64,000 nucleotides of DNA from Myxococcota bacterium. Its GTDB lineage: Bacteria; Myxococcota_A; UBA9160; UBA6930. Below, one piece after another: positions 43,259-64,000 of the stretch (positions are counted from its first letter, which is position 1; each line of letters starts with the position of its first letter). The stretch is taken from positions 3,328,001 through 3,392,000 of the forward strand of contig OZ245015.1 in assembly GCA_965223705.1 (NCBI GenBank). The letters run 5' to 3'. Under the pieces are notes generated by a model. That model had not been told where the DNA came from. It saw only the letters and a list, made by a program, of their open reading frames with translations, and made no database searches. Made by a program: the position numbers and the translations under genes.

Positions 43259-43323
43259 GAGTTGCGATTCCCGGTGAGCTCGCGTTCAATGGCGCGAGCA
43301 CGCGGCCATGAGGAACGCTCTCC

Positions 43324-46224: not shown

Positions 46225-47426
46225 GCGAGGGCAAGCCCTGGAACAAATCGGTTGCGCGCGGCGTCACGCAGAGCGCCCCGCAAGTGGGCCTCGCCGATCG
46301 GCTCAACGCCGGGCTCCGGCCCGAGCACCAAGCATTCTACGTCGTCCACGCGAATGCGGAGCCCATTCCGGGTGCCACTCGAAAGGAGCGGACCGAGCAG
46401 GTCCGGAGGCGGCAGGTCCAAGAGGTCGATCTCCACGACATCGCATCCAAGGGGGCGCGGCAGCGGTCCATCCTGAACCCATGAGGCGAATCCCCTGCCG
46501 CCAAGTGCCTCGGACACGCCGCTCCAGTAGTGATATTCGCGAAGCCAGGCGATGGCCTCACGCCAGCGGCTTCGAAGACGGAGGGACTCACAACAAAACG
46601 ACCAGCGGAGCCACGCCGACTTGAGCGCCCTTCCCAGTTTCGCGTCCGACATCGCGAGGCGTCGCGCGGAACGGACGAACCTCGGTCCGTGCGCGTCGAT
46701 GCTTCCAAAAAAGTGTCCACGGAACTCTGGGTACTCCTCCGCGAGCTGCACCTCGGCATGCCCTTCCGCGCGCAGTCTGCCCAGCCATTCGGGCAAATCG
46801 ACCGACTCGTGATGCCATGCCAGCGCGTTTGGTTCGTGCCGGATCTTCGTCCCCCGCCCGATCAACCGAAGTCCGAGTTCGTAGTCTTCGATCCTCCGGT
46901 AGCGGGCGTCGAACCCCCCGACATCGAAAAATACATCGCGTTTGATCGCGAGGTTTCCGCTAAAGACGTCCCGGTAGTTGAAGCGGTGTCCGGGCCGACG
47001 CATCTCTCGGTAACGGTCCTCCCACCACATCCGAGCATCGAGCTGCCACCAACTGGGGTTTTCGGGAAGGACGGCGCTCGAGTACCCGACGACCACCGAG
47101 CTGCTCCGCAATGCGTCACGGTGCGCCGCAAGCCATTCGGGAGAAGGCTCGACATCGTCGTCGAGGAACACGAGGTGTTCACCGAGGGCGTGCTCGGCGC
47201 CGACATTCCGGCTGCGCGCAGCACTCCTCGCGTCGTGAGAGGTCAACCTCAACGGAAACGAAACGTCGTCGAGCGCCGAGACCCAGTCAGCGGTGCCGTC
47301 CGTGCAGGTATCAGCCACCACCACGACTTCGAACTCGGAGGGATGGAGCGTCTGTTTTGCGAGGGCGTCAAGAGTTCTGCGCAGCGACTCCGATCGATTG
47401 TGAGTCGGTATCACGACGCTCAACAT
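46185..47426 (-). CDS. GT2 glycosyltransferase
   Basis: MLSVVIPTHNR, FLDDD, GNLAI, GGFD, EDYELG. Confidence 0.9.
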   Translation of the reverse strand: MLSVVIPTHNRSESLRRTLDALAKQTLHPSEFEVVVVADTCTDGTADWVSALDDVSFPLRLTSHDARSAARSRNVGAEHALGEHLVFLDDDVEPSPEWLAAHRDALRSSSVVVGYSSAVLPENPSWWQLDARMWWEDRYREMRRPGHRFNYRDVFSGNLAIKRDVFFDVGGFDARYRRIEDYELGLRLIGRGTKIRHEPNALAWHHESVDLPEWLGRLRAEGHAEVQLAEEYPEFRGHFFGSIDAHGPRFVRSARRLAMSDAKLGRALKSAWLRWSFCCESLRLRSRWREAIAWLREYHYWSGVSEALGGRGFASWVQDGPLPRPLGCDVVEIDLLDLPPPDLLGPLLSSGTRNGLRIRVDDVECLVLGPEPGVEPIGEAHLRGALRDAARNRFVPGLALAWAKGQRPEVDRC

Positions 47427-48625
47427 GGGGGAGCCTCGCCGCCGGAACTCCTCTTTCCGATTGCGGTCTGGCGTTTCAGATGGCGCCGGGATCGCAGATA
47501 GAGAAGCGGCCCGGCGAAGGCACCGAACAACTCCGCCGCGGCGACGCGAAGCGGTGGGCTCCCCGGGTGTCCGATCACCGAGCGAAGAAAGGCCCGCCCG
47601 GGCCCCGACCACAAGTACGCGAGACCGATCTTGAGGACGCCAAAATCTCGCTCTTCGAGTAGGGCGCGCGTCCACCACGCAAACACGCCCGAGCCATAGG
47701 CCGCCGAAACGTCGGATAGCGCCTGCTCGTCGCTGCGGTGGCGGTGCCAAACGAGCGCCCGCGGCTCGTACACGATCCGAAGGCCGCGCGCCAAAACGCG
47801 GTAGAAAAATTCGTGATCTTCACCGCAGCGGGTGAGTGTCCCCGGGCCGAGCGCTTCGTCGAAGACTCCGATCTCGTCGAGCGCCGAGCGTCGTATCACC
47901 ATGTTGACCGAGGCCCCCGCGAGACCTGCTGCGAGAGGTGTCAGCTGGTGGCGATCGAACTCTCGCCGCTCGTAGCCGCGACAAAATCCGTGGGCCTTCT
48001 CGAACCAGACCTGGGCGGGGGTCTCGAGCTCGAGGGGCATGGTGGCACCGGTCACGACCGCGACGAGCGGATCGGCGAAGCACCGCGAAACTCGTGTGAG
48101 CCACCTCGAATCGGGAACCGCGTCGTCGTCCGTGAACGCGACGAGCTCGGTCCGAGTCTCCCGAATCCCGCGATTGCGAGCCGCCGCCGCCCCTGGGCGC
48201 AGCTCCCGTACGTACCGAACCCCCGGCGTGCGATCCACGAGGGCCCGGGTCCGCTCGTCGCTCGGCGCATTGTCGACGACGAGGATGTCGGAGACCGGCG
48301 GGTCCATCGCCAGTAGGCCGTCAAGGCATCTCGCCAAGTCTTCGGGCCGGTCGCGGGTGCATACGACGACGGACAGATCGGTGGGTCCTCCGGACTGGAA
48401 TTCGGCTTCTTCGATCTTGCTCAGCCATGCGGGCCAGGCGCAGCGCCGGGCGGCCTGATCGAGGGATTCCGCGTCCAGTCGGCCGTCTCGCACGGGCAAC
48501 CAAGCTTGGCCGACCACCGCTTCGTCTTGGCGAAACACGACGAAAGCTTCCGGATACGGATCGAGGTCGTGGAGCTCCGTCGGAAGGGAGGCGAGTTGAA
48601 CCTCGCGAACAGCGGCTACAGACAA
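47420..48625 (-). CDS. GT2 glycosyltransferase
   Basis: SVVVCTRDRP, VDNAP, FTDDD, GEDHE, YEPRALVWH. Confidence 0.9.
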   Translation of the reverse strand: MSVAAVREVQLASLPTELHDLDPYPEAFVVFRQDEAVVGQAWLPVRDGRLDAESLDQAARRCAWPAWLSKIEEAEFQSGGPTDLSVVVCTRDRPEDLARCLDGLLAMDPPVSDILVVDNAPSDERTRALVDRTPGVRYVRELRPGAAAARNRGIRETRTELVAFTDDDAVPDSRWLTRVSRCFADPLVAVVTGATMPLELETPAQVWFEKAHGFCRGYERREFDRHQLTPLAAGLAGASVNMVIRRSALDEIGVFDEALGPGTLTRCGEDHEFFYRVLARGLRIVYEPRALVWHRHRSDEQALSDVSAAYGSGVFAWWTRALLEERDFGVLKIGLAYLWSGPGRAFLRSVIGHPGSPPLRVAAAELFGAFAGPLLYLRSRRHLKRQTAIGKRSSGGEAPPC

Positions 48626-48718
48626 CGCGAGAACTCCGCAGGTGACCGTCTATGACAACACAGTCAAGGCCGCCAGACAACACCCGGGTCGCGGTGCAGA
48701 AGGCGGTACTGTAGGGCG

Positions 48719-50704
48719 ATGTCCGACGGAAGCCGGGTCGCCGTCCGTGATGTAGACGTGCGACGCGTGGAAAGTCTTGAGGGGCTCGCCGCATATGGGG
48801 CGGTCGAGGTGCTTTTCCGCGACCAGGGCGTTCCTGTGGGCCGAGCCCGGCTCCTAGCTCCGAGTGCGAGGCTCCGTGCCGAGGCGATCCGGAAGGCGTG
48901 TCCACCCTTCCCGAAGGGCGACCGAACAGCCCGAACCCCCGGGATCATCCCGACACTCAGCGTCGCCGTCTGCACTCGCGATCGGCCTCGAGAGCTCGCT
49001 GCCGCGCTAACGACTCTCGCCCGCCAGGAGACCCCGCCGCTCGAAATCCTCGTCGTCGAGAACGGCGAGGCCGGCGAGACGCGCGCGGTAGTGCAGCGCT
49101 GTCTTCCCTCCGCGCGCTTCTTGCATGAGCCCGAAGCCGGTTTGGACTTTGCGCGCAATCGCGCCCTGATGGCCGCGGGCGGTGACCTGATCGCCTTTCT
49201 CGACGACGACGCCGAGGCGGATCCGCAATGGGCCGGCCGCATTGTCGAGGCGTTCGCGAACGATGCGGAAATCGGGGCCTTGACCGGCCTCACGATGCCC
49301 CTCGAGCTCGAGACGACGGCCCAGTGTTTGTTCGAGGCCAACGGTGGATACGGACGCGGGTTCGAAGTCCGACGCGTTCGGAGGCACGAGGGCATGTGGC
49401 ATGAGCTACTGCGTCCACTTCCCGCCCGAGTGCTCAACAGTGGGAATGGTTGCAACATGGCGTTTCGCGTGTCCGTCCTGCGCGCCGTTTCCGGGTTTGA
49501 TCCGGCGCTTGACGCCGGGCCTCCACTGCCCGGAGGCGGAGACCTCGACGCGCTTCTGCGAGTTTGCCAAGCCGGGCACGACATCCTCTACGAACCGCGT
49601 GCTCTGGTGCGACATCGACACCGCCGAACACTCGATGCCATGGACAAGCAGCTCGCGGGCCACCACCGCGCCGGAGTCGCCTACTTGGTCAAGAGCGTGG
49701 CGGGCGCTTCCGGAATCGCGCGACTCGGCGGCGTACTCTTCCTGATCTGGCGTCTTGTCAAGAATCCACTTCGGTTGTTGCGCTCCTGTGTGGGTCTCGA
49801 TCCCCTTCCGCCGCGCACACTCGCGGCTATGTCGAAGGCAGCCGTCGCAGGGCTGGGTAGCTACTCGTTGTCAAAAGCTCGCCAACGGCGGCACGTCCGG
49901 CGCCATGGCGGTCGTCCGCCGAACGCCCGCTCACAGGCCATCGACACGTGGCTCCACCGCGAGCTTGTCTGGCGACTCACCCAAAGGGATCTCAAAGCAA
50001 AGTATCAGGGTTCGTGGTTGGGCTTTCTTTGGACGTTGATCAACCCCCTGGTCACGATCGGCGTGATGGTTGTCGTCTTCTCACAGATCGTGCGGATTCC
50101 CGTGGACCGCTACTGGGCCTTTTTGTTGAGCGGCTATTTCGTGTGGTCATTCTTCGCGCAGACGCTCACCGGTGGCGTCCAAAGCGCCGCAGGAAACGCC
50201 TATCTGACCCGCAGTGCGTGGTTTCCGCAGGAATCGCTGGTGCTCGCCGCCGGAATCGCGCGCTTCCTCGAGTTCGCCATCGAGATGACCATCGTGGCGG
50301 TCGTGTTGGCAATCTTTCATCACGGCGCCATTCCCGCCTCCTACCTGGCTCTGCCCATCATCGTCCCCGCTCTGTTCATCGTTGTCATCGGCGTCGCTTT
50401 TCCGATCGCCGCACTCGCCGTCTACTACGTCGATACCGTCCACGCCTTGCCCTTGGCGATCGCAGCTCTTTTCTACGCGACGCCCGTTTTCTACCCGTTG
50501 AGCATCGTTCCCGAGCCGCTGCGCGCGTTCTTCGCACTGAATCCCATGGCGTTCCTGATCGATCTGTTTCACGACACCCTCTACAAGGGCGTGCTTCCGA
50601 GCTCGGCCGAGCTGGGGCTGACCGTCCTCGGCGGCATTGCTATCGCGGGGACCGGCTACTGGCTCTTCAACCGTCACAAGCGCAACTTTGCGGAGTTGTT
50701 GTGA
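48719..50704 (+). CDS. GT2 glycosyltransferase fused to ABC-2 polysaccharide exporter permease (Wzm)
   Basis: SVAVCTRDRP/FLDDD GT2 domain, then RDLKAKYQGSWLGFLWTLINP...FYATPVFYP...LNPM Wzm domain in one frame. Confidence 0.85.
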   Translation: MSDGSRVAVRDVDVRRVESLEGLAAYGAVEVLFRDQGVPVGRARLLAPSARLRAEAIRKACPPFPKGDRTARTPGIIPTLSVAVCTRDRPRELAAALTTLARQETPPLEILVVENGEAGETRAVVQRCLPSARFLHEPEAGLDFARNRALMAAGGDLIAFLDDDAEADPQWAGRIVEAFANDAEIGALTGLTMPLELETTAQCLFEANGGYGRGFEVRRVRRHEGMWHELLRPLPARVLNSGNGCNMAFRVSVLRAVSGFDPALDAGPPLPGGGDLDALLRVCQAGHDILYEPRALVRHRHRRTLDAMDKQLAGHHRAGVAYLVKSVAGASGIARLGGVLFLIWRLVKNPLRLLRSCVGLDPLPPRTLAAMSKAAVAGLGSYSLSKARQRRHVRRHGGRPPNARSQAIDTWLHRELVWRLTQRDLKAKYQGSWLGFLWTLINPLVTIGVMVVVFSQIVRIPVDRYWAFLLSGYFVWSFFAQTLTGGVQSAAGNAYLTRSAWFPQESLVLAAGIARFLEFAIEMTIVAVVLAIFHHGAIPASYLALPIIVPALFIVVIGVAFPIAALAVYYVDTVHALPLAIAALFYATPVFYPLSIVPEPLRAFFALNPMAFLIDLFHDTLYKGVLPSSAELGLTVLGGIAIAGTGYWLFNRHKRNFAELL

Positions 50705-51495
50705 TCGACCGCCAGCCGCGCCAGACTTTGGAGCTCGCCGACGACGTTGCTGTCGGGCTATGCAACGTGACGAAGCGATTCGTTCACTACGAAGGTACCC
50801 CGCGCACGCTGCGAAACCTTTTCATTCGATCAGCGAAGCGACGAGCCACGACACAGAGCTACTTCTCGGTACGAGACATCTCCATCCGAGTGGCACGCGG
50901 CGAGAGTGTCGGCATCATCGGCGACAACGGAGCGGGAAAAAGCACGCTACTCCGCCTGATCGCGGGGATCTATTGGCCGAGCGAGGGGTCGGTCATGACA
51001 CGTGGACGCTTGGCCCCATTGATCGAACTCGGCGTCGGGTTTCATCCGGAGCTGACAGGTCGTGAGAATGTCTTTCTATACGGATCGATCCTCGGGATTC
51101 CAAGTGACGTTCTCGAAGCGCACTATGACGACATCGTCCGAATGTCGGGCATCGCCGAATTCATGGACAGCCCCGTCAAGCACCACTCTTCCGGGATGAG
51201 GGCGCGACTCGGCTTCGCCGTCGCAACGGCGATCCGCCCAGATATTCTGTTGCTCGACGAGGTTTTCGCCGTCGGGGACGTCGGCTTCCGAGAAATCTCC
51301 GTGGCTCGGCTGCGCGCCTTCCAGGAAGCTGGAACGACGACGCTGCTCGCAAGTCACGACCTCGGCATTGTGCGCGAATTCGCAACGCGGGTCATCTGGC
51401 TCGAGAATGGCGCGATCGCGGCCGCGGGAGAGGTCGAAGAGGTGACCCGGGCCTATCAGCACGCGAAGTTTCCGACTGGAGAACCCGCCGGGTGA
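50701..51495 (+). CDS. wzt: Polysaccharide ABC exporter ATP-binding protein
   Basis: GTGA overlap; GDNGAGKST, GFHPELTGREN, SSGMRARLGF, LLLDE; no C-terminal carbohydrate-binding extension. Confidence 0.9.
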   Translation: MIDRQPRQTLELADDVAVGLCNVTKRFVHYEGTPRTLRNLFIRSAKRRATTQSYFSVRDISIRVARGESVGIIGDNGAGKSTLLRLIAGIYWPSEGSVMTRGRLAPLIELGVGFHPELTGRENVFLYGSILGIPSDVLEAHYDDIVRMSGIAEFMDSPVKHHSSGMRARLGFAVATAIRPDILLLDEVFAVGDVGFREISVARLRAFQEAGTTTLLASHDLGIVREFATRVIWLENGAIAAAGEVEEVTRAYQHAKFPTGEPAG

Positions 51496-52586
51496 ACTCC
51501 CAGTCGGCGATACCTGAGAAGCCGGACCTCAGTGTGGTCATTCCTACCAGGAACCGCCCGCAAGCGCTCGCGTTGACGCTCAAAGCCCTGTCACGCGTCG
51601 ACTTTCCGCCGCCCGAACGATTCGAGGTCGTGATCGTCGATGACGGTTCCGCAGAGCCCGTCGGACGGAGCGAATTAGAACGGACCGCCCCGAAGCGAAC
51701 CCGGGTCGTGCGCCATGAGAGGCCGTTGGGTGCAGCGGCCGCGCGCGAGCACGGCTGGCGCGTCGCCACGGGAGAATGGGTGCTCTTTCTCGACGACGAT
51801 GTTCGCCCTGCCCCCGAGCTGCTCGTCCGCCATCGGGAAGCTCAGCAGCGGAGCGGTGCGGAGGTCATTTTGGGAAGCTGCCCGTTTGAGGCGCGGGATG
51901 CCGAACCACCCCATGTGCGCCTCACCCGACTTTGGTGGGACTCACACCTCAAGAGACTGGCGACGGACGAGCCGAGCTGGTTCGGTCAGCTGACAACAGG
52001 AAATGTCTCGATCCGTCGCGACGTCCTCGTGCGTTGCGGTGGATTCGATGTGACGTTTCCCGCTCGGGAGGACTACGAGTTGGGACAGCGCTTGCTCGAT
52101 GCCGGCGCCGCCTTCCACTACGAAGCGGCTGCGCGGGCCGTCCAGACCTGTTGCGAGAGCATCCATGAATGGCTCGAAGGATTTCGGGCGTGTGGTCGGG
52201 CTGACGTCGCTTTCGCGTGGAAGCATCCGACTAAGGTCGCTGTCCTCATGCGGCGCGCGGGACTGGCCCCGGTGCCGCGATGGTTTGGCGGCCGCGCGCT
52301 GGCTCTCGCTACTCGGTTCCTCACTCGATCCCGCGCCCGCTACGACTTCCGTTGGATGTTATCCTCACGCTTGGTTCTCGCGGATCGCTATTGGGGCGGT
52401 ATCCGCGAAGCTTCAGCGGACCCGAGAATCCCGGGCCTCCTAGAACGCGCACAACGTTCCGGATCAAGCGCGGAGTGGCTCGCGTGGCGATCCGCTTCAG
52501 ACATGCCCGGACTCGGTCAAGGCCCGGGAGCGGGATCCGCGGCGCGGAGCCCTTCCCACGGGCACTCGGTGCACTCGTATCGGTAA
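51492..52586 (+). CDS. GT2 glycosyltransferase
   Basis: SVVIPTRNR, VDDGS, FLDDD, EDYELG. Confidence 0.9.
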   Translation: MNSQSAIPEKPDLSVVIPTRNRPQALALTLKALSRVDFPPPERFEVVIVDDGSAEPVGRSELERTAPKRTRVVRHERPLGAAAAREHGWRVATGEWVLFLDDDVRPAPELLVRHREAQQRSGAEVILGSCPFEARDAEPPHVRLTRLWWDSHLKRLATDEPSWFGQLTTGNVSIRRDVLVRCGGFDVTFPAREDYELGQRLLDAGAAFHYEAAARAVQTCCESIHEWLEGFRACGRADVAFAWKHPTKVAVLMRRAGLAPVPRWFGGRALALATRFLTRSRARYDFRWMLSSRLVLADRYWGGIREASADPRIPGLLERAQRSGSSAEWLAWRSASDMPGLGQGPGAGSAARSPSHGHSVHSYR

Positions 52587-53599
52587 AACCGCAGACCAAC
52601 GCGCTCGAGGCTTCGGTCTCTGGCCGTGCGAGGGATTCGTTCGATCCGGTGGCTGCCGCACCGCGGACAGCCGCCGTGCCGGCTCAGCGATGGATGATTC
52701 AGGACCCAGTGCTTGGCCGGGACGCACAGGACGAGGAGAAGAGCGCCCAGGAAGACCGCAGTTAAGATTCCGGCGCCACCCTCGTATGCGAGCCAGGCCA
52801 ACGCGCTCGGAAATCCGTAGATCACTTCAGCGACGCCGGTTTGCGCGTTCAGTCGAAAAACCATGGGCTCATTTTCCCGAACGGTCGTGACCTCGAAACC
52901 TTCGATGTCGACAGTTCTTCCATTCGCTCCGACGCTGTGCCAGGTCCCGGTTCCGACGATCCGGACCTCAAACGTGGCTGGGCTCGCCACACGCGTGTAG
53001 AACTGAAACTTCGACGCGCCGAACGGTGTCAGCGCCGTGCGTCCTTCGTCGTGTCTCCAGCCCTGGAAACCACCCGTCGCCGTGTAGGCATCGTGTCCGT
53101 CCTCGGCAACCAACAAGATCCGGCTCGCTTGACCGCTCGCAGTCCGTTGCTGAACCAGCTTGAAGCGGACGACCTGGCCCGGTTCTTTAACCACGGCCCA
53201 GGACGCCTGCGGTGGGATCTGAATGCGCCAATCGCCGCACGCGACAGCCACCCAGAGGTAGTGGCCGGCCGCGTCAAATCGAAATTCCGCCGAATAGATC
53301 CCGTCGCCCGCCTCTTCGTCAGCGTCGAGACCTCGATCGTTCATCGGGTGACTGGCGCTATCCCACGCTTGGAAATCCCCCGCCAGGCACCACCCAGTAT
53401 CGGGTACCGTGATGTCGCGCAGGACGTGGGTCGGCGTGCCCCGTTCGGCGAGCTGCGTTGCGAGGAGCACATAGGGATTGGCCAACGACGCCAAAGCGAG
53501 GACAACGGCGATCGTCGCAAGGATTGGCCACAGCCGCGCTCCTTCCTTCTGGGGCTTCGGCTGGTGCCCGTCCGCTGATGCCTCCGCCGTCTCGGACAA
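52517..53599 (-). CDS. Membrane protein with two carbohydrate-binding-like repeats and a C-terminal Zn ribbon
   Basis: TM; AGDFQAW...AGDGIYS and TGGFQGW repeats; TM; CPRC-x26-CTEC; TTG start after GGGAGA inferred. Confidence 0.62.
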   Translation of the reverse strand: MSETAEASADGHQPKPQKEGARLWPILATIAVVLALASLANPYVLLATQLAERGTPTHVLRDITVPDTGWCLAGDFQAWDSASHPMNDRGLDADEEAGDGIYSAEFRFDAAGHYLWVAVACGDWRIQIPPQASWAVVKEPGQVVRFKLVQQRTASGQASRILLVAEDGHDAYTATGGFQGWRHDEGRTALTPFGASKFQFYTRVASPATFEVRIVGTGTWHSVGANGRTVDIEGFEVTTVRENEPMVFRLNAQTGVAEVIYGFPSALAWLAYEGGAGILTAVFLGALLLVLCVPAKHWVLNHPSLSRHGGCPRCGSHRIERIPRTARDRSLERVGLRFYRYECTECPWEGLRAADPAPGP

Positions 53600-53716
53600 C
53601 CGCGTTCTCCCTAGCGCCGAGCCGAATCGATTCGATGCCGGGTAGTTCGGGACAATGAAACCGCCGATCGCAACTTCTTGCCAGACGGCCCCGAATACAA
53701 GGACGTGGGTGACGCG

Positions 53717-54757
53717 ATGACCGAAAAGCTCAGCGTGTGCGTCATCAATCGAAACGGTGGCGATGCGCTTGTCAACACATTGGCGTCCATCATGGAACAG
53801 GGGGACATCGTTGCCGAGGTTCTTCTCGTGGACAACGCATCGGACGACGGTAGCCCCGAAAAGGCCCTCGCGTGCCACCCTTCCGTCAAGCTCGTCCGGC
53901 GGGAAGACAATTGCGGTCCCGGTGCAGCCCGAAACGCGGGATTCCGGGCGGCACAATACGAGCGAATCCTATTTGTCGACGGCGACGTCCGCCTGCAGCC
54001 AGGTTGCGCCGCGCAGCTGCGACACGCTCTCGCGCACTCGGAACGCATCGTCGCGGCGATGCCCCGTGTTCGGTTCGAGGATACGGGGGAAGTTCAGTGC
54101 GATGGAGCAGATTCTCACTATCTGGGTTTCATGTTGGTCCAGCACCAGAGGGGAAATGAGATGCGGCGCATCGGATCTATCGTGTCGGCCTGTATGCTGC
54201 TCGATCGCTCTCGCTGGGGGCGGTCGGATCCGTTTGATGAAGACTTCTTCATCTACTACGAAGATCACGATTTCGGCCTTCGAGCGCGCGCTGCCGGATG
54301 GGAGCTTGTGGGCGTACCAGCCGCAGTGTGCTCTCACGGAGGGGGCACGCCCGGGTTGTCGTATCGCCCTGGACGCTCGTATCCGACCGGGCGTGTCTAC
54401 TTCCACATCCGTAACCGTTGGCAACTCATCCTCAAGAACTACGAGTTCGGATCCCTGTGTCTCTTGGCGCCCTGCCTGCTCTTCTACGAAGCTCTCCAAC
54501 TCGCGGGCGTCGTAAGCAAGGGTTGGTTCAAAGAATGGACACGCGCCGCGGAGTGGGTGCTCTCCAACCGGCGGACACTTCTCGCGAAGCGCCGCGCCGC
54601 AAGCGCAGCGCGGACCGTCTCCGATCGCGAGCTTTGGGTCGGCGGAGAGTTGCCATTCCATCCGGGACTACTGACCCGCCGCGGGGAGCGGGCCGCGTTG
54701 CGCTTCGTCAACGCTGTCCTCGCAGCCTATTGGCGCCTTTGCTCGAGAATCCTCTAG
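53717..54757 (+). CDS. GT2 glycosyltransferase (rhamnosyltransferase-like)
   Basis: VDNASDDGS, FVDGD, FDEDFFIYYEDHD, RNRW. Confidence 0.88.
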   Translation: MTEKLSVCVINRNGGDALVNTLASIMEQGDIVAEVLLVDNASDDGSPEKALACHPSVKLVRREDNCGPGAARNAGFRAAQYERILFVDGDVRLQPGCAAQLRHALAHSERIVAAMPRVRFEDTGEVQCDGADSHYLGFMLVQHQRGNEMRRIGSIVSACMLLDRSRWGRSDPFDEDFFIYYEDHDFGLRARAAGWELVGVPAAVCSHGGGTPGLSYRPGRSYPTGRVYFHIRNRWQLILKNYEFGSLCLLAPCLLFYEALQLAGVVSKGWFKEWTRAAEWVLSNRRTLLAKRRAASAARTVSDRELWVGGELPFHPGLLTRRGERAALRFVNAVLAAYWRLCSRIL

Positions 54758-54799
54758 ATGCACTAACATGGCCGGCGGACCCCGTGCTCTGGATCTTCG

Positions 54800-55999
54800 A
54801 TGTCAGTCCGCCGCGTTCTCATGGTCGCTGCCTGTCCGTTCCCCGCGAACCGCGGAACCCCGATTCGGAGCTTTCGATTGGCCGAGGCCATCTCCAAGGC
54901 CGGAATCGAAGTCGAGGTCGTCACTTATCACTTGGGACGAGCGCAGCCCGAACCGAGCTTTTCGGTTTACCGGACCCCGCGCGTGGCGACGTATGTGCGC
55001 TATCGGCCGGGACCCTCCCTGCAGAAACTGGTGGTGATGGACCCGTTGCTGATGCGGAAGATCCGCTCGCGTATCCGGCGCAACCCTCCCGACGTGATTC
55101 ATGCCCATCACTGCGAGGGTTTGCTAACCGCGTTGTTCGCAAGTCCCGATTCCGAGTGCCCCGTGATCTACGATGCGCACACGATTCTGGGCGCGGAGCT
55201 CCCCCACTACCTTCCGCGCTGGATGAAAGCCCCGGGGCGCTGGCTCGGCGATACGTTCGACCGCTATCTCGCGAGGCTTTCCGAGTTCGCCATTGTCGGC
55301 ACCCAGGGGATGAAAGACGAACTCCTCGAGCGGAATTTTGGCCCGGAGAAGTGCATTCGAGTGATCCCCAACGGCGTAGATTTCGATGCGTTTACCCCCA
55401 TCGACCCTACTCGATTGGGAACCGACGAAGGCAATACCATCGTATTCGCGGGAAATTTGGCTCCCTACCAAGGTCTGCAGCTGCTTGCGGAGGCCTTCAA
55501 GGTCGTTCGCTCCTACCGCCCGGACGCGCGACTTCAGGTCGTTACCGAAGATCGAACGCGCCCAGTGGGTTGGCCAGCAGAGATCGAGCTGATCAACGCT
55601 TCGTTTCGCGAACTGCCCGCCTACCTGCACCGGGCCGACATCGCCGTCAATCCGCGGTCGGATTCCGCCGGAATGCCGCAAAAGCTGTTGAACTACATGG
55701 CAGCCGGGCTTCCCGTCGTCTCCTTCGCACGAGGGGCCGAAGTGATCGAGCACGGGAGCACGGGCTTTATTGTTTCAGAACCAACACCGGACGCACTGGC
55801 TCGCGGTTTGATCGAGATGCTGAACAACAGGGCACTCGCGCGCCGGTTGGGCGCCAATGCGCAAAGAAAAGTCCAGCGAGAATTCAGCTGGGCGCGTGCG
55901 GCGGAGGATTGCCTGTCTGCGTACGCTGACTTTAGGGAGACCAAGGCGAGAGAGCGCTCGCGAGGAGAAAGCGTTCTCGGACGAAAGGAACTGCGATGA
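54800..55999 (+). CDS. GT4 glycosyltransferase
   Basis: DVIHAH, IPNGVD, FAGNL, PQKLLNYMAAGLPVV, FSW. Confidence 0.9.
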   Translation: MSVRRVLMVAACPFPANRGTPIRSFRLAEAISKAGIEVEVVTYHLGRAQPEPSFSVYRTPRVATYVRYRPGPSLQKLVVMDPLLMRKIRSRIRRNPPDVIHAHHCEGLLTALFASPDSECPVIYDAHTILGAELPHYLPRWMKAPGRWLGDTFDRYLARLSEFAIVGTQGMKDELLERNFGPEKCIRVIPNGVDFDAFTPIDPTRLGTDEGNTIVFAGNLAPYQGLQLLAEAFKVVRSYRPDARLQVVTEDRTRPVGWPAEIELINASFRELPAYLHRADIAVNPRSDSAGMPQKLLNYMAAGLPVVSFARGAEVIEHGSTGFIVSEPTPDALARGLIEMLNNRALARRLGANAQRKVQREFSWARAAEDCLSAYADFRETKARERSRGESVLGRKELR

Positions 56000-56894: not shown

Positions 56895-57455
56895 ATGACG
56901 CAACTCACTCGAATCCCTCGGTCCGAGCTCACCCCGGAACTGGTTGCGCTTCACGACCAGTTGACGAAGGAAGGCGTTGATGCGCGGTTTGTCGAAGCGG
57001 GCGCGAACGCTCCCGAACTCCTCGATTGGTACTTCAACAGCTTCTACGGAAAGGTCTTCTACGATGGCCGTGTCGACGCTCGAACGAAGGAGCTGTTGCG
57101 CCTCAAGCTGTCGAAGACCCACGGCTGCTTTCTCTGAAACCGCGTGAACACTGCCTCGGCGAGGCAGCACGGAGTGACGCAGGCTCAGATCGATGCTCTC
57201 CCCGACGACGTCGAGAACGAGGCATTCTCGGAGAGAGAACGGGCGGTCCTACGAGCGGCCGAACAGATGGTCCTCACCAACCTCCACGGCATGCTCGAGG
57301 ACGGACATTACCAGGCGCTGAAGAAGCACTTCTCCGACGGCGAGATCTTCGAGCTGGGCATGGTGATGGCCGTTCTCTGCGGTTTTGCCAAGTTCTTGTT
57401 CTGCTTCGACTTGGCTGATCGCGAGGACACCTGCCCGATCCACCCAGGCGCGTAG
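56895..57455 (+). CDS. AhpD/carboxymuconolactone decarboxylase-like protein, probable selenoprotein (CFLU, TGA at 57135-57137), 186 aa
   Basis: ORFs 56895-57137 and 57144-57455 share a frame. Read-through gives RTKELLRLKLSKTHGCFL-U-NRVN...FSERERAVL...LKKHFSDGEIFEL. RBS GGAGG is seen only at the first start. Confidence 0.86.
57143..57171 (+). promoter_or_regulatory. Candidate bacterial SECIS hairpin
   Basis: CTGCCTC-GGC-GAGGCAG 7-bp stem (57151-57167) with a G-first loop 21 nt after the TGA; lower stem CGTG/CACG. Confidence 0.75.
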
Positions 57456-57461
57456 TTCGGG

Positions 57462-58364
57462 CTACGCGGACGCGGCCTTCGACAACCACTCCCGGATGGC
57501 TTCTCCGATTTCGTGAGGACAGTCCTCCTGGAGAAAATGGATGCCGGGGAGCGTGATCTCCTGCTGGTTGGGCCAGGCCCGACAGATCTCCCGCGGCCGA
57601 CCGACCAGGATCGCGCCGGGTTCCGCATTGATGAACAGTTTCGGGAACGCCGCGGTATTCATGAAGTCGGCGTTTGCCGCGACGGCTTCCACCACGTCCG
57701 TCGGCTGCCCCGCTAGCGGGATCTGGCGCGGCCAAGTCAGCGTCGGCCGCCGGGATTCTCCGGCTTCGGTATACGGGGCGCGGTAGACGTTCATCTCCTC
57801 GTCGCTGAGCTTGCGCTGGATCGCGGCGGGTAGAACTTGTTCGATGAACACGTTTTGCTCGAGGACCATGGCCTCTCCGGCATTCGAACGAAAGCCTTCG
57901 AAGAGCCCCACGAACTCCGGCGGAAAATCGGACCACTCGAGAGGGGTCACGATGGCCTCCATGTACGCAATGGCTCGAACGCGATCGGGGTGTTGTCGTG
58001 CCCACTCAAAGCCGAGGGCCGAGCCCCAATCGTGAATGACCAGCGTCACCGGACCTTCCGGTACCAGCGCATCGATGAAGCCGTTCAGGTAGTGACGATG
58101 CTGCGCGTACGTATAGGAGAACACGGAGGGCTCGGGGAGCTTTTCAGAGTCACCCATTCCGACAAGATCCGGGGCGATGCAACGGGCCCGATCCGCCAGG
58201 TGGGGCATGATGTTTCGCCACAGGTAGGACGAGGTCGGGTTGCCGTGTAGAAACAGGATCGGTTCTCCGGAACCGATCTCGACGTAGGCCATCTCCAGTC
58301 CGTGGACGTCGACCTTTTGTTTCTTCGCGGGGTGGTTCGTTTCGATCGATCGGGCATCGGACAT
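57462..58364 (-). CDS. dhaA: Haloalkane dehalogenase, HLD-II (LinB/DhaA type)
   Basis: HGNPTSSYLWRN, VIHDWGS (Asp nucleophile, Trp), YMEAI (Glu), TWPRQIP, GIHFLQED (His). Confidence 0.93.
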   Translation of the reverse strand: MSDARSIETNHPAKKQKVDVHGLEMAYVEIGSGEPILFLHGNPTSSYLWRNIMPHLADRARCIAPDLVGMGDSEKLPEPSVFSYTYAQHRHYLNGFIDALVPEGPVTLVIHDWGSALGFEWARQHPDRVRAIAYMEAIVTPLEWSDFPPEFVGLFEGFRSNAGEAMVLEQNVFIEQVLPAAIQRKLSDEEMNVYRAPYTEAGESRRPTLTWPRQIPLAGQPTDVVEAVAANADFMNTAAFPKLFINAEPGAILVGRPREICRAWPNQQEITLPGIHFLQEDCPHEIGEAIREWLSKAASA

Positions 58365-58439
58365 CGGGTTCCTCACTTCGCGAAACCAGGGTTGTGCGTT
58401 CGCCGTATACTCTAGGTTACCGGGCCCGAGGAGAACCAC

Positions 58440-59246
58440 ATGAGTGAGAAACTGCGTTTCTTGCACCATCCCGCCTCACAACCGTGCCGAGCGGCGCGCC
58501 AGTTCCTAATCGAAAACGACATCGCTCATGTCGATGAGATCATCGATATCACGACGAACATCAACGAGACCCAAGAATTCAGAGATCGCTACAACCCGAC
58601 GGGGCAAGTGCCTATTCTTGTCGACGGCGACTTCGTGGTGTGGGAGAACGTCGCGATCGGGCGGTACTTGGATGAAAAATTCGAGTGCGAAAGCCACTGG
58701 TTCGGTTCCAGCCTGGAAGAGCGGGCGAAGATCAACCAATTCGTTCAGTGGTACGCGTACACACTGCGACTCGGCGGGGGGGCGTTCCACTGGACGATCT
58801 TTGCTCCGATGATCTATGGGCCGGACAAAGATTTCACCGCGGAACGGAGGAAGGGATATCACGTCCTCTACGAGTCTCTGGAGGTGCTAGAGAACTACTG
58901 GCTGAAGAGCAGCGACTACTTGTGCGGCGAAGAAGTGAGTTACGCGGATCTAGCCGCTTACCACGAGCTGGTGTCGCACGACGCGGGGAACATCATTCCC
59001 GAGAACGTCTGGAAAAAGCATGGCCGCATCACCGCGTGGTTCGAGCGCATGTCGGCGCGGCCGGCGAGCAAGGCGGTGAGTGCGTGGCAGTACGAGACGA
59101 TCCGCAAAGTGCTCGCCGGAGAGATCTCCGTGGAATTCAATCGGCGCACCGCCGTACTGAAAGGAACGGAGGCTTTTGGGGGGCACAACAACGGCATCCC
59201 TCATCTCGGCGAAGAGCGGGACTACCTCGCCGAGGTGGAAGCCTAG
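58440..59246 (+). CDS. dcmA: Dichloromethane dehalogenase-like theta-class glutathione S-transferase
   Basis: HHPASQPCR, RYNPTGQVPILVDGDF, WYAYTLRLGGGAFHWTIFAPMIYG, LVSHDAG, SAWQYE, TAVLKGTE, GHNNGI all match my recollection of Methylophilus DM11 DcmA; 268 aa. Confidence 0.87.
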   Translation: MSEKLRFLHHPASQPCRAARQFLIENDIAHVDEIIDITTNINETQEFRDRYNPTGQVPILVDGDFVVWENVAIGRYLDEKFECESHWFGSSLEERAKINQFVQWYAYTLRLGGGAFHWTIFAPMIYGPDKDFTAERRKGYHVLYESLEVLENYWLKSSDYLCGEEVSYADLAAYHELVSHDAGNIIPENVWKKHGRITAWFERMSARPASKAVSAWQYETIRKVLAGEISVEFNRRTAVLKGTEAFGGHNNGIPHLGEERDYLAEVEA

Positions 59247-60304: not shown

Positions 60305-60934
60305 ATGAAACTTCACGATTGTCAGATGGCACCGAACCCCCGCCGCGCCCGGATCTTCCTCGCAGAAAAGGGGATCGATTGCGAGATGGTTGAGCACAGC
60401 ATTCTCGGCGGTGAAACGAACGCCGGCGACTACCTAAAGATCAACCCATGGGGCACCGTACCGGCCCTCGAGCTCGACGACGGCACCGTCATCCGCGAAG
60501 CACCGGCGATCATGCGCTACCTCGAATCCCAACACCCGGAGCCCAATCTGATGGGCAGCGATCCGCGCGAGGCCGCGGAGATCGAAGCTTGGGAGCGATT
60601 CTCCGAGCAGAACGGTATCGGTGCGATCGGCGAGTTCTTTCGCAACCAGACCGATGCGCTCAAGGGGCGCGGGATGCCCGGCCCGACGAGCCTGGAACTG
60701 ATTCCCGGCCTGGTGGAGCGTGGCAAGAAGCGCGCGGGCTGGTTCTATACCGAGCTCGACAAGCGCCTCGGCGAATCGGAATACCTGGGCGCGGGTCGCT
60801 ACACCGCGGCGGATATCACCGCTCAGTGCGCAGTCGACTTCGGCAACGCCGTGGGCATGGGGATACCCGACGCCTGCAAGAACGTCGCGCGCTGGCACGC
60901 GGCGGTGAGTTCGCGACCGAGCGCCGCGAGCTAA
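60305..60934 (+). CDS. Glutathione S-transferase (GTT2-like)
   Basis: APNPRRARIFLAEKG, NPWGTVPALELDDG, YTAADITA. Confidence 0.92.
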   Translation: MKLHDCQMAPNPRRARIFLAEKGIDCEMVEHSILGGETNAGDYLKINPWGTVPALELDDGTVIREAPAIMRYLESQHPEPNLMGSDPREAAEIEAWERFSEQNGIGAIGEFFRNQTDALKGRGMPGPTSLELIPGLVERGKKRAGWFYTELDKRLGESEYLGAGRYTAADITAQCAVDFGNAVGMGIPDACKNVARWHAAVSSRPSAAS

Positions 60935-60939
60935 GCCGC

Positions 60940-63357
60940 CTACGGCTTCCCTCTGCCCGAGAGCTCCCTCGCGGCATCGACGTCGATGCTGCGAAGATGC
61001 AGGTCTCGCTGTGGGAACGGAATCTCGATATCGGCTTCCGTGAGGGCGCGGTTGATCTCCGTGTTGATCCGTGACTGTACGACGTACCAGTCGTCGTAGT
61101 CCGCGATCCAAACGCGAAGTTCGAAATCGAGCGAGCTATCCCCGTGCCCGCGAAACAGCGCCACCGGCGACGGGTAGCTGAGCGATTTTTCTTCGCGTTC
61201 GGCAACGCCCCGGAGAAGCTCGAGGACGCGGTCGGGCTCTGTTCCGTACTTCACGCCAATGGGGATGTCGACCCGACGCGTTTTGTCGGAAAGCGTCCAG
61301 TTCGTCACTTGCTGCGAAATGAGATCCGCATTGGGAACAATGATCTCGGAGCCCTGATACGTTCGAAGGGTGCTCGATCGGATTCCGATACGACGGATGA
61401 CGCCCAGTTGATTCCCCAGGTCGATCGTGTCTCCGACTTGGATCGGACGTTCAAAGAGCAGAATGATTCCGCTCACGAAGTTGTTGACGACATTCTGCAA
61501 GCCGAAACCGATTCCCACGCCGAACGCTCCAGCCAACAAAGCAAACCGGCTCAGGTCGATGCCGGCAGCCGCCACGGCGAGAAGAAAGCCCAGGAACAAG
61601 ATCACGTACTGTGCCGTGGCGCTAACCGCGTGGGGTATCCCCCGTCCGGTCCGTATTCTCGGGAAGACGTCTTCCATCAAGAGGAAGCGCACGACCCGGG
61701 AGAAGACGATGGATGCGGCGATCGTGATCGCGAAAGCCGCCACGTCTCCGAGCGACACCGCGGCCTCACCCCAAGTGACGGATGTCGTCAACGCCGTTCT
61801 GGCCGCGGCGACCACGGGATCTCGGACAGCGAACGACCCCAGGCTCAGGTAGGCCCACAGCAGCGCGCCCGCGATCGAGATCCCTCTGAGGATCCAACCC
61901 ACGGCGACGCCGCGACGGGCGCGCAGGAATTGGAGTTTTTGTGCGCGCGCAGTCCGCGTACCCACATCGACTGCGGTCCACAGAATCTGCACGCCGGCGT
62001 ACACAGCGATCGCGGTATAAACCGTCGCAAGCATGCCCTCTCCGAGCACTTTGCTGAGTGAGAAGTAGCCCAAAACGTTCGCGAGAAACGAGACGGAGAA
62101 GACGACGAGAGCGACGCGGACGGCGGTACCGAGCCAACGCGGGACCGAATTGGCGTCGGGCACCTTCGCCAAACGAGCGGGTCGCAGCAGTAGAATGCAC
62201 AAACACGAAGCCGCCACACACTCGATCGCGAAAATCACGCGGCTCTCGAGCGCGGCACCCTGAAACGCGGCGCGAAGGCGGTCGACGACATAGAACGCGG
62301 CGACGGCGTACAAGACCGGGCGGAATTCGGTGTGCGTGAGACGCGGAAGCAGCACCACGAGCGGCAGTAGCAGAAGCAGACCCACACCATCAAAGAACGC
62401 ACTGGGAGCGAGTGGGAAAATCCAATACGTCAATAGCAGTGCCGCGACGAGTGCGAGCGCCAACGGGTGCTCGAGCGCTTCCGCGGACCGCTCGATTTTC
62501 CCGCCAGCCGCCCGACGCGCCGCAACACTCCGCTTGAGATTACGCGCAGCGAGCCACGCGACCACGAAGAAAAGGGCGACCAAACCGACGTGGCGAGGCC
62601 TCTCCCCGACGAACCCGCGGATCGCGACCCAATTCGTTTTGAGTGCGGTCGCGATGTTCGCGGTCGGTTTCGCGTCGCTGTCGGAAAGCGCCGACCAGAT
62701 CGGCGCACTGTCGGGTTCAAATAGGCGATCGCGAATCGTGGCTCGCGATTCATCGATTGACTCCAAGACCTCAGAAGCGAGAAGTTCCTGCTGGGCAACC
62801 CGGTTCTGCAAACCCAAGACTTCGCCGCGACGCCTCGAGACGACTTCGCGGACGTCCTTGATCTCCTCCTCGGAGCGCGTGATCGCCGCGATGACTTCGT
62901 CGGGCGCGCCCCTTTCGTTTGCGGACGTCAAGCTCGCGGACCAGACCTGGTCGAGCGACCGGAGCTTCTCGACTTCCCGTCCCAGTCGCGCGACCCTCCG
63001 AGTGAGCGTGGTGCGCCACGCTTCGAGTTCGCTGGCCTGCCGCCTCCAATCGCGTTCCAGAGAGTTGAGCTTTGCGAGCGCCGGCCGATGTTTCAGCAAC
63101 GTTTGGGTCTCCACCCGTCGTCGCTCCAGCTCGGAAATAGCCCCCGCGAGAAGATCTTTGACAGCTTCGATCGATACGTCGGGCTCTGCCAAGGCCCGCG
63201 ACCGTCTCAGTAGGCTCGCCGTTTCCTCCGCACGCTCGGCGACTTCCGCAACGGGTATGGGCTGAGGGAGAGAGGGGCCGTCCTCGGCAGGGGCGTCCTC
63301 GCCCAGCGCCGGCAGCGAAAGCAAGAACCAAACAACGGCAAAGAAGGCTTGGCGCAT
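60940..63357 (-). CDS. Large MscS-family mechanosensitive channel (MscK-like)
   Basis: Signal, periplasmic coiled coil, many TM helices, GVGIGFGLQNVVNNFVSGIILLFERP, VPN, VTNWT, IPFPQRD. Confidence 0.92.
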   Translation of the reverse strand: MRQAFFAVVWFLLSLPALGEDAPAEDGPSLPQPIPVAEVAERAEETASLLRRSRALAEPDVSIEAVKDLLAGAISELERRRVETQTLLKHRPALAKLNSLERDWRRQASELEAWRTTLTRRVARLGREVEKLRSLDQVWSASLTSANERGAPDEVIAAITRSEEEIKDVREVVSRRRGEVLGLQNRVAQQELLASEVLESIDESRATIRDRLFEPDSAPIWSALSDSDAKPTANIATALKTNWVAIRGFVGERPRHVGLVALFFVVAWLAARNLKRSVAARRAAGGKIERSAEALEHPLALALVAALLLTYWIFPLAPSAFFDGVGLLLLLPLVVLLPRLTHTEFRPVLYAVAAFYVVDRLRAAFQGAALESRVIFAIECVAASCLCILLLRPARLAKVPDANSVPRWLGTAVRVALVVFSVSFLANVLGYFSLSKVLGEGMLATVYTAIAVYAGVQILWTAVDVGTRTARAQKLQFLRARRGVAVGWILRGISIAGALLWAYLSLGSFAVRDPVVAAARTALTTSVTWGEAAVSLGDVAAFAITIAASIVFSRVVRFLLMEDVFPRIRTGRGIPHAVSATAQYVILFLGFLLAVAAAGIDLSRFALLAGAFGVGIGFGLQNVVNNFVSGIILLFERPIQVGDTIDLGNQLGVIRRIGIRSSTLRTYQGSEIIVPNADLISQQVTNWTLSDKTRRVDIPIGVKYGTEPDRVLELLRGVAEREEKSLSYPSPVALFRGHGDSSLDFELRVWIADYDDWYVVQSRINTEINRALTEADIEIPFPQRDLHLRSIDVDAARELSGRGKP

Positions 63358-63432
63358 TTCCCTGTGATCCTAGCCGAGCCGGAACTGGCGGGGGCGGCTA
63401 CGGTCTGCGCGGCGTGCTTCGGGAGAAACTCG

Positions 63433-63816
63433 ATGTCGAAAGTCCATACGCCTAGGAAGATTGCGGCGACTCTCACCGACCTCTGGTCCCCGCAAATTCT
63501 CGCCGAGGTCGATGACGCCTACATCAAGGTCGCCAAAGTCGAAGGCACCCTCGCCTGGCACAGCCACGACGATGAAGACGAGCTCTTCTACGTGCTCAAA
63601 GGGTGCCTCAGGATCGAACTCGAGCACGAAACGGTAGAGCTCGACGAAGGCGACCTCTTCGTGGTCCCGAAAGGCACCCCGCACAACCCGATCGCAGAAT
63701 CCGAATGTCACATCCTGCTGATCGAGCGGAAGACAACCCTTCACACCGGAGGTGTCGTGACAGACAAAACGCGATCGATCGAGGAGCAACTCCGAGGCCG
63801 CCCCCGAGCTCGCTAG
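63433..63816 (+). CDS. Cupin-domain protein
   Basis: WSPQI, WHSHDDEDELF, VVPKGTPHNP, HTG. Confidence 0.88.
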   Translation: MSKVHTPRKIAATLTDLWSPQILAEVDDAYIKVAKVEGTLAWHSHDDEDELFYVLKGCLRIELEHETVELDEGDLFVVPKGTPHNPIAESECHILLIERKTTLHTGGVVTDKTRSIEEQLRGRPRAR

Positions 63817-64000
63817 ATATCGATCTCCCGTGCCCGAACGATGAATCGCTGTGGGGCGCTGCCGACCCAGTAAAACGGGTAACACGTAACGAGGGTCAAC
63901 GTAGGCGTGGCCGTGGGATCGAGGACGTGAACGGCTTCCGGTTCGACAACACGGATGAGATCGACGGCAAAGGTCCGCGTCCGCCCGGGTGTCTCGATCG
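63813..64000 (-). CDS. Sortase (class D-like), C-terminal fragment, truncated by the window edge
   Basis: Manual translation, absent from the ORF track: ...VVEPEAVHVLDPTATPTLTLVTCYPFYWVGSAPQRFIVRAREIDI* (TLxTC plus catalytic Arg). Confidence 0.88.
   Translation of the reverse strand, partial: IETPGRTRTFAVDLIRVVEPEAVHVLDPTATPTLTLVTCYPFYWVGSAPQRFIVRAREIDI

What the first reader, a model, noticed from the sequence alone, without database searches (positions are those of the whole stretch)
58440..59246. DcmA homolog outside its known methylotroph/transposon context
Seen: long exact motifs typical of DcmA, with the catalytic Ser in PASQPC and the C-terminal TAVLKGTE...GHNNGI tail. No dcmR, dcmB/C or IS element is visible nearby. 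Known: characterised dcmA genes come from aerobic methylotrophs, often IS-flanked, and the origin of the enzyme is unclear. Inference: this may be a native reservoir or ancestral lineage acting on biogenic dihalomethanes. The similarity is judged from memory of the DM11 sequence and is not computed.
Basis: partly seen in the sequence, partly recalled or inferred. Interest (0 to 1): 0.8.

Follow-up and report, generated by a model that had tools for sequence, protein, structure and literature searches.

The report
Third-lineage dichloromethane dehalogenase in Myxococcota
This gene belongs to the same enzyme family that lets bacteria break down the solvent dichloromethane, in an untested third branch found in uncultured environmental bacteria; this host acquired it from elsewhere and probably uses it to strip halogens from natural dihalomethanes and oxidise the resulting formaldehyde.

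Summary
Observation confirmed. The ORF is DcmA by sequence: 62.6% identical to DM11 and 59.4% to DM4, which share 58.8%; Ser13 and 21 of 22 DcmA-diagnostic columns are kept. It belongs to a third, uncharacterised clade inside the DcmA group (100/100). Other members often keep dcmR (9 of 16 loci) and a dcmB-like gene (8 of 15).

'Native/ancestral' is not supported for this host, a Myxococcota bacterium. The gene is in 2 of 225 class genomes, is 84-87% identical to Hyphomicrobiales copies where ribosomal L1 is 60-62%, and a basal position is rejected. The setting is not C1-free: the genome has xoxFJG, FrmA, FghA and formate dehydrogenase, but no C1-assimilation route was found. dcmR is absent; a haloalkane dehalogenase sits back-to-back instead.

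Best reading (0.7): a horizontally acquired dihalomethane dehalogenase feeding formaldehyde oxidation for energy or detoxification. Activity is untested. The scan earlier noted the ~50% sister family on other DNA.

The parts
58440..59246 (+). dcmA-type glutathione-dependent dihalomethane dehalogenase, third clade ('clade C'), 268 aa
   Evidence: AF2 model pLDDT 83 with theta-GST fold, best Foldseek hits human GSTT1/GSTT2; dN/dS 0.07-0.10
58476..58478 (+). Ser13 codon; aligns with DM11 Ser13 counted from Met (Ser12 in the literature numbering), the residue required for activity
   Evidence: role taken from the title of Vuilleumier and Leisinger 1996 in the reference list of PMC5585157
58365..58439 (.). 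75-bp divergent intergenic region with an RBS for each gene and a TATACT hexamer at 58406-58411; lacks the conserved dcmR-dcmA intergenic motif of relatives and the DM4 operator motif
   Evidence: no full sigma-70 consensus site found
57462..58364 (-). LinB-type haloalkane dehalogenase, an extra paralog, in the position that dcmR holds in relatives
   Evidence: NCBIfam PRK03592 421.7 bits vs cut-off 241; LinB structures among top PDB hits; relatives' copies are 67-80% to the genome's other HLD and 56-63% to this one
56895..57455 (+). AhpD/CMD-fold CxxU selenoprotein gene with in-frame TGA at codon 81; its close ortholog lies near dcmA in the other class genome that has dcmA
   Evidence: tRNA-Sec in the genome
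59284..60204 (-). SMP-30/gluconolactonase family gene, convergent with dcmA; no link shown
60305..60934 (+). generic GST of a family with many paralogs in this genome; not DcmA-like

Best explanation
The gene encodes a functional DcmA-type dihalomethane dehalogenase of a third clade, acquired horizontally, most likely from Alphaproteobacteria, without dcmR, and resident long enough for its codon usage to look host-like. Mechanism, by homology with DM4 and DM11 (inferred, not shown here): Ser13 activates glutathione; the thiolate displaces one halide of CH2X2; the S-halomethyl thioether hydrolyses to S-hydroxymethylglutathione/formaldehyde plus a second halide. The host's FrmA, FghA and formate dehydrogenase (genes shown) oxidise this to CO2 and yield reducing power, and a ClC-family protein could export halide. 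No C1-assimilation route was found, so the likely gain is supplementary energy plus detoxification in a heterotroph that also oxidises methanol with XoxF, not growth on DCM as sole carbon source. The back-to-back haloalkane dehalogenase would extend the range to longer haloalkanes. The natural substrate is probably trace natural CH2Cl2, CH2Br2, CH2I2 or mixed dihalomethanes (inference).
For: As close to each characterised enzyme as they are to each other. Careful tree of 47 rows: DcmA group 100/100, DM11 type 100/97, DM4 type 100/99, clade C 100/99, DM4 type + C 97/86, so clade C is bracketed by the two assayed enzymes in the best tree (99/95). 123 of 143 columns shared by 8 DcmAs from cultured degraders are kept (sister family 87-106; n=64), and 21 of 22 diagnostic columns. 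Purifying selection, dN/dS 0.07-0.10 in the 3 of 5 unsaturated pairs. Clade C loci keep the dcm module: HTH+MEDS regulator in 9 of 16, CmcJ/NvfI gene in 8 of 15, nitrilase in 4 of 19, and one has FrmA directly downstream. The DcmB-CmcJ and nitrilase links are described for DM4/MC8b in PMC7760279. Host has GshB, FrmA, FghA, FDH, FtfL and ClC over cut-off and xoxFJG with pqqCE. xoxF is in 5 of 225 class genomes and both dcmA holders are among them; both Hyphomicrobiales holders also have a methanol-dehydrogenase-type hit.
Against: No clade C enzyme has been assayed, as far as 10 literature searches show. The AU test does not reject clade C lying outside DM4+DM11 (p=0.246, 25 rows, LG+G4), so the bracket is not secure. 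20 of 143 shared columns differ, several in the C-terminal half, and residues 237-259 are poorly modelled (pLDDT below 50). The xoxF co-occurrence rests on two genomes that share other accessory genes at 70-85% identity, so it is not independent evidence. No consensus promoter was found. Absence of C1 assimilation rests on two HMM searches (Fae, malate thiokinase) and recalled motif scans in a 95%-complete genome.
Confidence: 0.7

Rival explanations
1. Clade C is a DcmA relative whose main substrate is another small electrophile (a monohalomethane, haloacetonitrile, 1,2-dihaloethane, epoxide or a sulfur C1 compound), with dihalomethane activity absent or incidental.
For: Nitrilase genes recur beside dcmA in 4 of 19 loci; clade C has its own long stem and 20 substitutions at otherwise shared columns; its position outside A+B is not rejected; mammalian theta GSTs, the closest structures, are broad-range (recalled).
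Against: 21 of 22 DcmA-diagnostic residues are kept; the nitrilase is also beside dcm genes in true DCM degraders (PMC7760279); the MEDS regulator and FrmA linkage fit a formaldehyde-yielding reaction.
Confidence: 0.17
2. One reading: this host lineage is the native reservoir or ancestral source from which methylotroph dcmA genes derive.
For: Codon usage is host-like (CAI 28th percentile, GC3 22nd percentile of 1344 genes); no IS nearby; a second genome of the order carries a related copy near the same selenoprotein gene; five sequences including these two group together (bootstrap 96 but SH-aLRT 43).
Against: 2 of 225 class genomes and 1 of 401 phylum genomes; 87% and 84% identity to Hyphomicrobiales copies vs 62% and 60% for ribosomal L1; nested inside clade C; basal position rejected at p=0.003; the fuller dcmR-A-B module is in the alphaproteobacterial-type loci, not here.
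Confidence: 0.05
3. A silent or decaying passenger: acquired with a mobile segment, stripped of its regulator and promoter, and no longer used.
For: dcmR and the conserved intergenic motif are gone; no consensus promoter.
Against: Intact ORF, strong RBS, dN/dS 0.07-0.10 against three relatives with synonymous sites near saturation, ordinary terminal branch length (0.1).
Confidence: 0.08

Closest known systems
DcmA of Methylophilus leisingeri DM11 (UniRef100_P43387; P0039)
   Same: 62.6% identity over 265 aa, near-identical length, no N-terminal extension, catalytic Ser and the His-Trp117/118 motif aligned
   Different: Separate clade (100/97 vs 100/99); betaproteobacterial methylotroph host that grows on DCM
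DcmA of Methylorubrum extorquens DM4 and the dcmRABC cluster of Hyphomicrobium/Ancylobacter (P21161; P0121-P0134)
   Same: 59-61% identity; sister to clade C in the best trees (97/86, 99/95); clade C relatives keep dcmR-, dcmB- and nitrilase-like neighbours
   Different: 288 aa with N-terminal extension; DcmR-regulated and usually transposase-flanked (PMC7760279). Here there is no dcmR, the dcmB-like gene is unlinked, no IS was found, and the host is Myxococcota without a detected assimilation route
dcmA reported in one Binatota Bin18 genome (PMC8262859)
   Same: An uncultured non-proteobacterial host with dcmA and dhaA called from a genome
   Different: One sentence, no phylogeny or context in the passages seen; I could not place that protein in my tree
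DcmA-like sister family (about 50% identity; P0050-P0120)
   Same: Same N-terminal motifs; some loci also have an HTH-MEDS regulator
   Different: Lacks the DcmA-diagnostic residues and lies outside the 100/100 branch; the query is not a member
Human theta GSTs GSTT1-1 and GSTT2-2 (PDB 2c3n, 4mpf)
   Same: Closest solved fold, TM 0.73-0.77, serine-type SQPCR motif
   Different: 25-28% identity; no DcmA C-terminal tail

Membership tests
DcmA dichloromethane dehalogenase (EC 4.5.1.3) | Theta-class GST fold with N-terminal catalytic serine | tested here: met
DcmA dichloromethane dehalogenase (EC 4.5.1.3) | Falls in the clade that holds the DM4 and DM11 enzymes, apart from generic GSTs and the 50% sister family | tested here: met
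   100/100; basal position of the query rejected p=0.003; 21 of 22 diagnostic columns
DcmA dichloromethane dehalogenase (EC 4.5.1.3) | Nested between the two assayed types (phylogenetic bracket) | tested here: inconclusive
   A+C 97/86 and 99/95, but A+B not rejected, p=0.246
DcmA dichloromethane dehalogenase (EC 4.5.1.3) | GSH-dependent conversion of CH2Cl2 to formaldehyde and 2 HCl | not testable with these tools
   needs an enzyme assay
dcmRABC gene cluster | Divergent dcmR (HTH + MEDS) upstream | tested here: not met
   present in 9 of 16 other clade C loci
dcmRABC gene cluster | dcmB directly downstream | tested here: not met
   CmcJ/NvfI homolog (58.6% to a linked copy) about 1 Mb away; it does not group with the 8 clade-C-linked copies (100/99) in the tree
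dcmRABC gene cluster | dcmC downstream of dcmB | not tested
   no DcmC query sequence in hand; flanking ORFs belong to other families
dcmRABC gene cluster | Flanking transposases/IS (usual, not universal: absent in MC8b) | tested here: not met
   MC8b
Methylotroph (growth on C1 compounds) | C1 oxidation chain (methanol dehydrogenase, formaldehyde and formate oxidation) | tested here: met
Methylotroph (growth on C1 compounds) | C1 assimilation (serine cycle, RuMP or CBB) | tested here: inconclusive
   malate thiokinase hit under cut-off; no RuBisCO or Hps by recalled motifs; FtfL and SHMT present; genome 95% complete
Haloalkane dehalogenase, LinB type (neighbour gene) | Family score over cut-off and catalytic motifs (HGNPT, HDWG, MEAI, HFLQED) | tested here: met

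The most novel reading that the evidence does not exclude
Clade C is the main natural form of DcmA: a dihalomethane (CH2Br2, CH2I2, CH2Cl2) dehalogenase traded among uncultured C1-oxidising heterotrophs, forming an unrecognised aerobic sink for biogenic halomethanes and the pool from which the pollutant-degrading DM4 type arose. In these Myxococcota it has been rebuilt into a regulator-free halocarbon-scavenging island: a bidirectional promoter drives DcmA and a haloalkane dehalogenase, and an AhpD-type selenoprotein that travels with dcmA handles thiol or electrophile stress from the reactive S-halomethylglutathione intermediate.
Probability: 0.25. Interest if true: 0.75.

Novelty: new variant of a known kind. 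Interest (0 to 1): 0.52.

Why it matters
DcmA is known from two sequence types in cultured degraders; in 2020 an 89.6%-identical variant was called the most divergent alphaproteobacterial system (PMC7760279). A third, well-supported clade at about 60% identity, often with its own dcmR/dcmB module and in hosts from Hyphomicrobiales to Myxococcota, makes the question of DcmA's natural substrate and origin testable with one heterologous expression. Marine systems are estimated to release about 190 Gg DCM a year (10.1101/2021.08.30.458270), so an aerobic natural sink would bear on halomethane budgets. Primers built on DM4-type genes would probably miss this clade (inference from sequence distance). 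The limits: the chemistry is known, some clade members already carry the automatic name 'dichloromethane dehalogenase', and this copy is a recipient, not the source.

Tried and rejected
Generic-GST reading: rejected (the profile search shows one full-length 50% cluster at 518 bits plus fragments, then a drop to about 180 bits or less). Recent IS-, plasmid- or phage-borne insertion: no match in 72,556 plasmids at E 1e-20, none in viral contigs, no repeats or transposases. The low GC of the gene (57.9%, 0.4th percentile) is a family-wide amino-acid effect, since GC3 and CAI are ordinary and relatives have 53-63% GC. dcmR elsewhere in the genome: none. DM4 operator motif from PMC9320726: 13 window matches at up to 2 mismatches, 8.3 expected by chance, none upstream of dcmA. 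Conserved dcmA-HLD pairing: not found. Unlinked dcmB-like gene as a co-transferred partner: it is in 21 of 225 class genomes including both dcmA holders, best match G099 at 72%, but is unresolved in the tree; weak. Expression: no RNA holder listed. Host habitat: not determined; one NqrF motif hit is too thin. The first AU run returned no answer and was repeated on 25 rows without the mixture model. Careful trees of 131 and 86 rows did not finish; quick trees were returned. Bader and Leisinger 1994 (PMC205533) was not held, and a search for DM11 mutagenesis data beyond Ser12 found none, so active-site roles of other residues are not assigned. No complex prediction was run.

Full report
1. The observation. 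Window 58440-59246 (+) is an intact 268-aa ORF with a GAGGAG RBS, PASQPC at residues 11-16 and the tail TAVLKGTEAFGGHNNGI. Pfam sees only GST_N and GST_C, and no NCBIfam family passes its cut-off. The protein search returned 194 relatives among 786 candidates; cluster look-up of 10 of them named DM11 DcmA (P0039) and the DM4/Hyphomicrobium/Ancylobacter enzymes (P0121-P0134). Identity is 62.6% to DM11 and 59.4% to DM4, while these two share 58.8%. The recalled similarity is therefore real and large.

2. Placement. A quick tree of 131 rows, a quick tree of 86 rows and a careful tree of 47 selected rows agree. The DcmA group is one branch (100/100) with three clades: DM11 type (100/97), DM4 type (100/99) and a third clade, here clade C (100/99), that holds the query. 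DM4 type and clade C are sisters at 97/86. Outside lies a family at about 50% identity. On 25 rows with LG+G4, the AU test rejects the query being basal to all other DcmAs (p=0.0029) but does not reject clade C being outside DM4+DM11 (p=0.246), so the bracket by the two assayed enzymes is the best estimate, not a proof. Of 143 columns identical in 8 DcmAs from cultured degraders, the query keeps 123 (clade C 118-129, n=24; sister family 87-106, n=64). Of 22 columns at least 90% conserved in types A+B and under 10% in the sister family, it keeps 21. Its Ser13 aligns with the DM11 serine that a cited title calls required for activity (reference list of PMC5585157). An AlphaFold model (pLDDT 83; residues 237-259 poor) matches human GSTT1/T2 best. 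A profile search of 1.84 billion representatives shows the family as a compact island. dN/dS is 0.07-0.10 against three relatives; two other pairs are saturated.

3. Clade C elsewhere. The top 26 clusters hold 444 member sequences; the search was seeded by the query and favours this clade. Named members are MAGs labelled Hyphomicrobiales, Stappiaceae, Rhodobacteraceae, Rhodospirillaceae, Alphaproteobacteria and Burkholderiaceae; several already carry the automatic name 'dichloromethane dehalogenase'. Of 80 metagenome loci kept from 490, 16 are clade C; with L001, L002 and the G099 locus that makes 19. A divergent HTH_17+MEDS regulator is present in 9 of the 16 with over 600 bp upstream (3 dropped as too short); a CmcJ/NvfI gene follows in 8 of the 15 with enough downstream DNA (4 dropped); a nitrilase is near in 4; L037 has an S-(hydroxymethyl)glutathione dehydrogenase 244 bp downstream. 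Some loci are near-duplicates (L027/L033, L040/L047). PMC7760279 describes DcmB as resembling a cephalosporin hydroxylation/methyl-transfer protein and notes a nitrilase beside dcm genes (passages and section 3.4). I therefore call these genes dcmR- and dcmB-like; DM4's own DcmR and DcmB were not compared directly, but a DM4-type locus (L080) has the same downstream gene at 57-62%. The dcmR-bearing loci share a conserved intergenic motif that the window lacks.

4. The host. Ribosomal protein L1 is 91% identical to a 'Myxococcales bacterium' MAG protein and 77% to a 'Myxococcota bacterium' one; class UBA9160 is my guess from recall, not a result. The genome is 4.56 Mb, 95% complete. DcmA-level hits: 0 of 60 relatives, 2 of 225 class genomes (this one and G099 of another family, 79%), 1 of 401 phylum genomes sampled. 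The query is 87% and 84% identical to copies in two Hyphomicrobiales MAGs whose L1 proteins are 62% and 60% identical to the host's. That is horizontal transfer. The direction, Alphaproteobacteria to Myxococcota, is inferred from nesting and from the fuller module in the former; support inside clade C is weak (84/71, 96/43). CAI and GC3 are at the 28th and 22nd percentile of 1344 host genes, and no IS was found, so the event is not recent. Short-read contigs confirm the arrangement.

5. C1 metabolism. The genome has glutathione synthetase, FrmA, FghA, formate dehydrogenase, FtfL and a ClC protein, all over family cut-offs. It has a xoxFJG operon at C1:2323743-2326716: best PDB hits are XoxF-type methanol dehydrogenases (772 bits) against 357 for ethanol dehydrogenases, with a DYD lanthanide-type motif (recalled label), xoxJ over cut-off, a cytochrome c under the MoxG cut-off, and pqqCE elsewhere. 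This xoxF is in 5 of 225 class genomes, both dcmA holders among them (naive probability 0.0004, overstated because the two genomes share other accessory genes). Fae was not found, malate thiokinase is under cut-off, and recalled RuBisCO and Hps motifs gave nothing. The host looks like a heterotroph that oxidises C1 compounds for energy.

6. The locus. No MEDS domain exists in the genome. In dcmR's place, 75 bp upstream and divergent, is an intact LinB-type haloalkane dehalogenase. It is an extra copy: 24 of 24 relatives' HLDs are closer to the genome's other HLD, which is syntenic with the same-genus genomes. It belongs to a small group of 9 clusters at 72-79%. The pairing is suggestive but unique: 0 of 19 other loci have it. 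One kb upstream lies an AhpD/CMD-fold gene with an in-frame TGA in a CxxU motif. Its close ortholog (E at most 1e-50) is in the same 2 of 225 genomes as dcmA, 5.3 kb from dcmA in G099, with the TGA kept and a hairpin downstream showing one compensatory pair change (hairpin z-scores are unremarkable). This may be shared ancestry of one acquired segment and need not be a functional link.

7. Mechanism and odds. Shown: family membership by sequence, constraint, transfer, presence of downstream genes. Inferred from DM4/DM11: glutathione displaces one halide, the gem-halo thioether decomposes to formaldehyde and frees glutathione (passage in PMC11777429; products in PMC12750041). Inferred here: FrmA-FghA-FDH oxidation to CO2, constitutive or host-controlled expression, natural dihalomethanes as substrate. 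That DcmA also takes bromo and iodo substrates, and that algae make them, is recalled; I saw only the title of Blocki et al. 1994. Odds: dihalomethane dehalogenase 0.70, other electrophile 0.17, silent passenger 0.08, native ancestor 0.05.

8. What is in print. Ten searches of open-access PMC and bioRxiv showed no paper describing a third DcmA clade or dcmA in Myxococcota; only the top 15 of 1,004 and of 75 hits were listed, and subscription journals, where much DcmA work sits, are not covered. dcmA outside classical methylotrophs has been noted in one Binatota genome (PMC8262859, passages), and the gene was detected in natural soils (PMC10385969, passages). I read passages only of PMC5585157, PMC9320726, PMC6299022, PMC4271186, PMC5606688, PMC11139923, PMC11777429, PMC12750041 and 10.1101/2021.08.30.458270. 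No supplements were read; those of the Binatota paper could identify its dcmA clade. Two earlier notes of this scan describe the sister family on other genomes.

9. Verdict. A real DcmA-group gene of an undescribed clade, in a new phylum, as a horizontally acquired and reorganised copy within a C1-oxidising genome. New variant of a known kind; interest 0.52.

Noticed in passing
window 56895-57455 (+): AhpD/CMD-fold selenoprotein (CxxU) that ORF callers split at an in-frame TGA; TGA and a downstream hairpin with one compensatory change are kept in G099; close ortholog only in the two dcmA-bearing genomes of 225.
   Followed up: partly
L108 5890-6121 (G000:C1 about 1195889-1196120): Group I intron match (RF00028, 61.1 bits over gathering 50) inside the 23S rRNA gene.
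   Followed up: no
L172 8744-13132 (G000:C1:2323743-2328131): xoxFJG operon, rare in the class (5 of 225), preceded by a methyl-acetate-hydrolase AcmB-like gene (361 bits, under cut-off 550) that could supply methanol.
   Followed up: partly
G000 whole genome: 12 PQQ-dependent alcohol dehydrogenase genes over the TIGR03075 cut-off.
   Followed up: no
L156 (G000:C2), window 62035-64000: Contig C2 (17 kb) repeats C1:3390035-3392592 at 99.8% and otherwise resembles a block at C1:3.65-3.68 Mb at 75-79%; probably a strain variant or alternative path.
   Followed up: partly
L106 7779-8753 (G000:C1:2387778-2388752, -): Unlinked dcmB-like CmcJ/NvfI gene; the genome has at least four further, more distant paralogs.
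   Followed up: yes
L061, L063, L066, L067, L070, L071: Loci of the 50% sister family also carry dcmR-like HTH-MEDS genes (39-50% identity over the full length; L066 only a 41-aa piece), so the regulator link may predate the DcmA group.
   Followed up: partly
L026 2512-3432 (-): The closest dcmA relative with context (83%) has no dcm module either; an unassigned ORF that looks AhpD-like by eye converges on it (no Pfam hit).
   Followed up: no
window 41846-55999: Glycosyltransferase/ABC-2 polysaccharide cluster, including a GT2-ABC2 permease fusion ORF at 48719-50704; the GT4 gene at its end has atypical codon usage.
   Followed up: no
   Followed up: no
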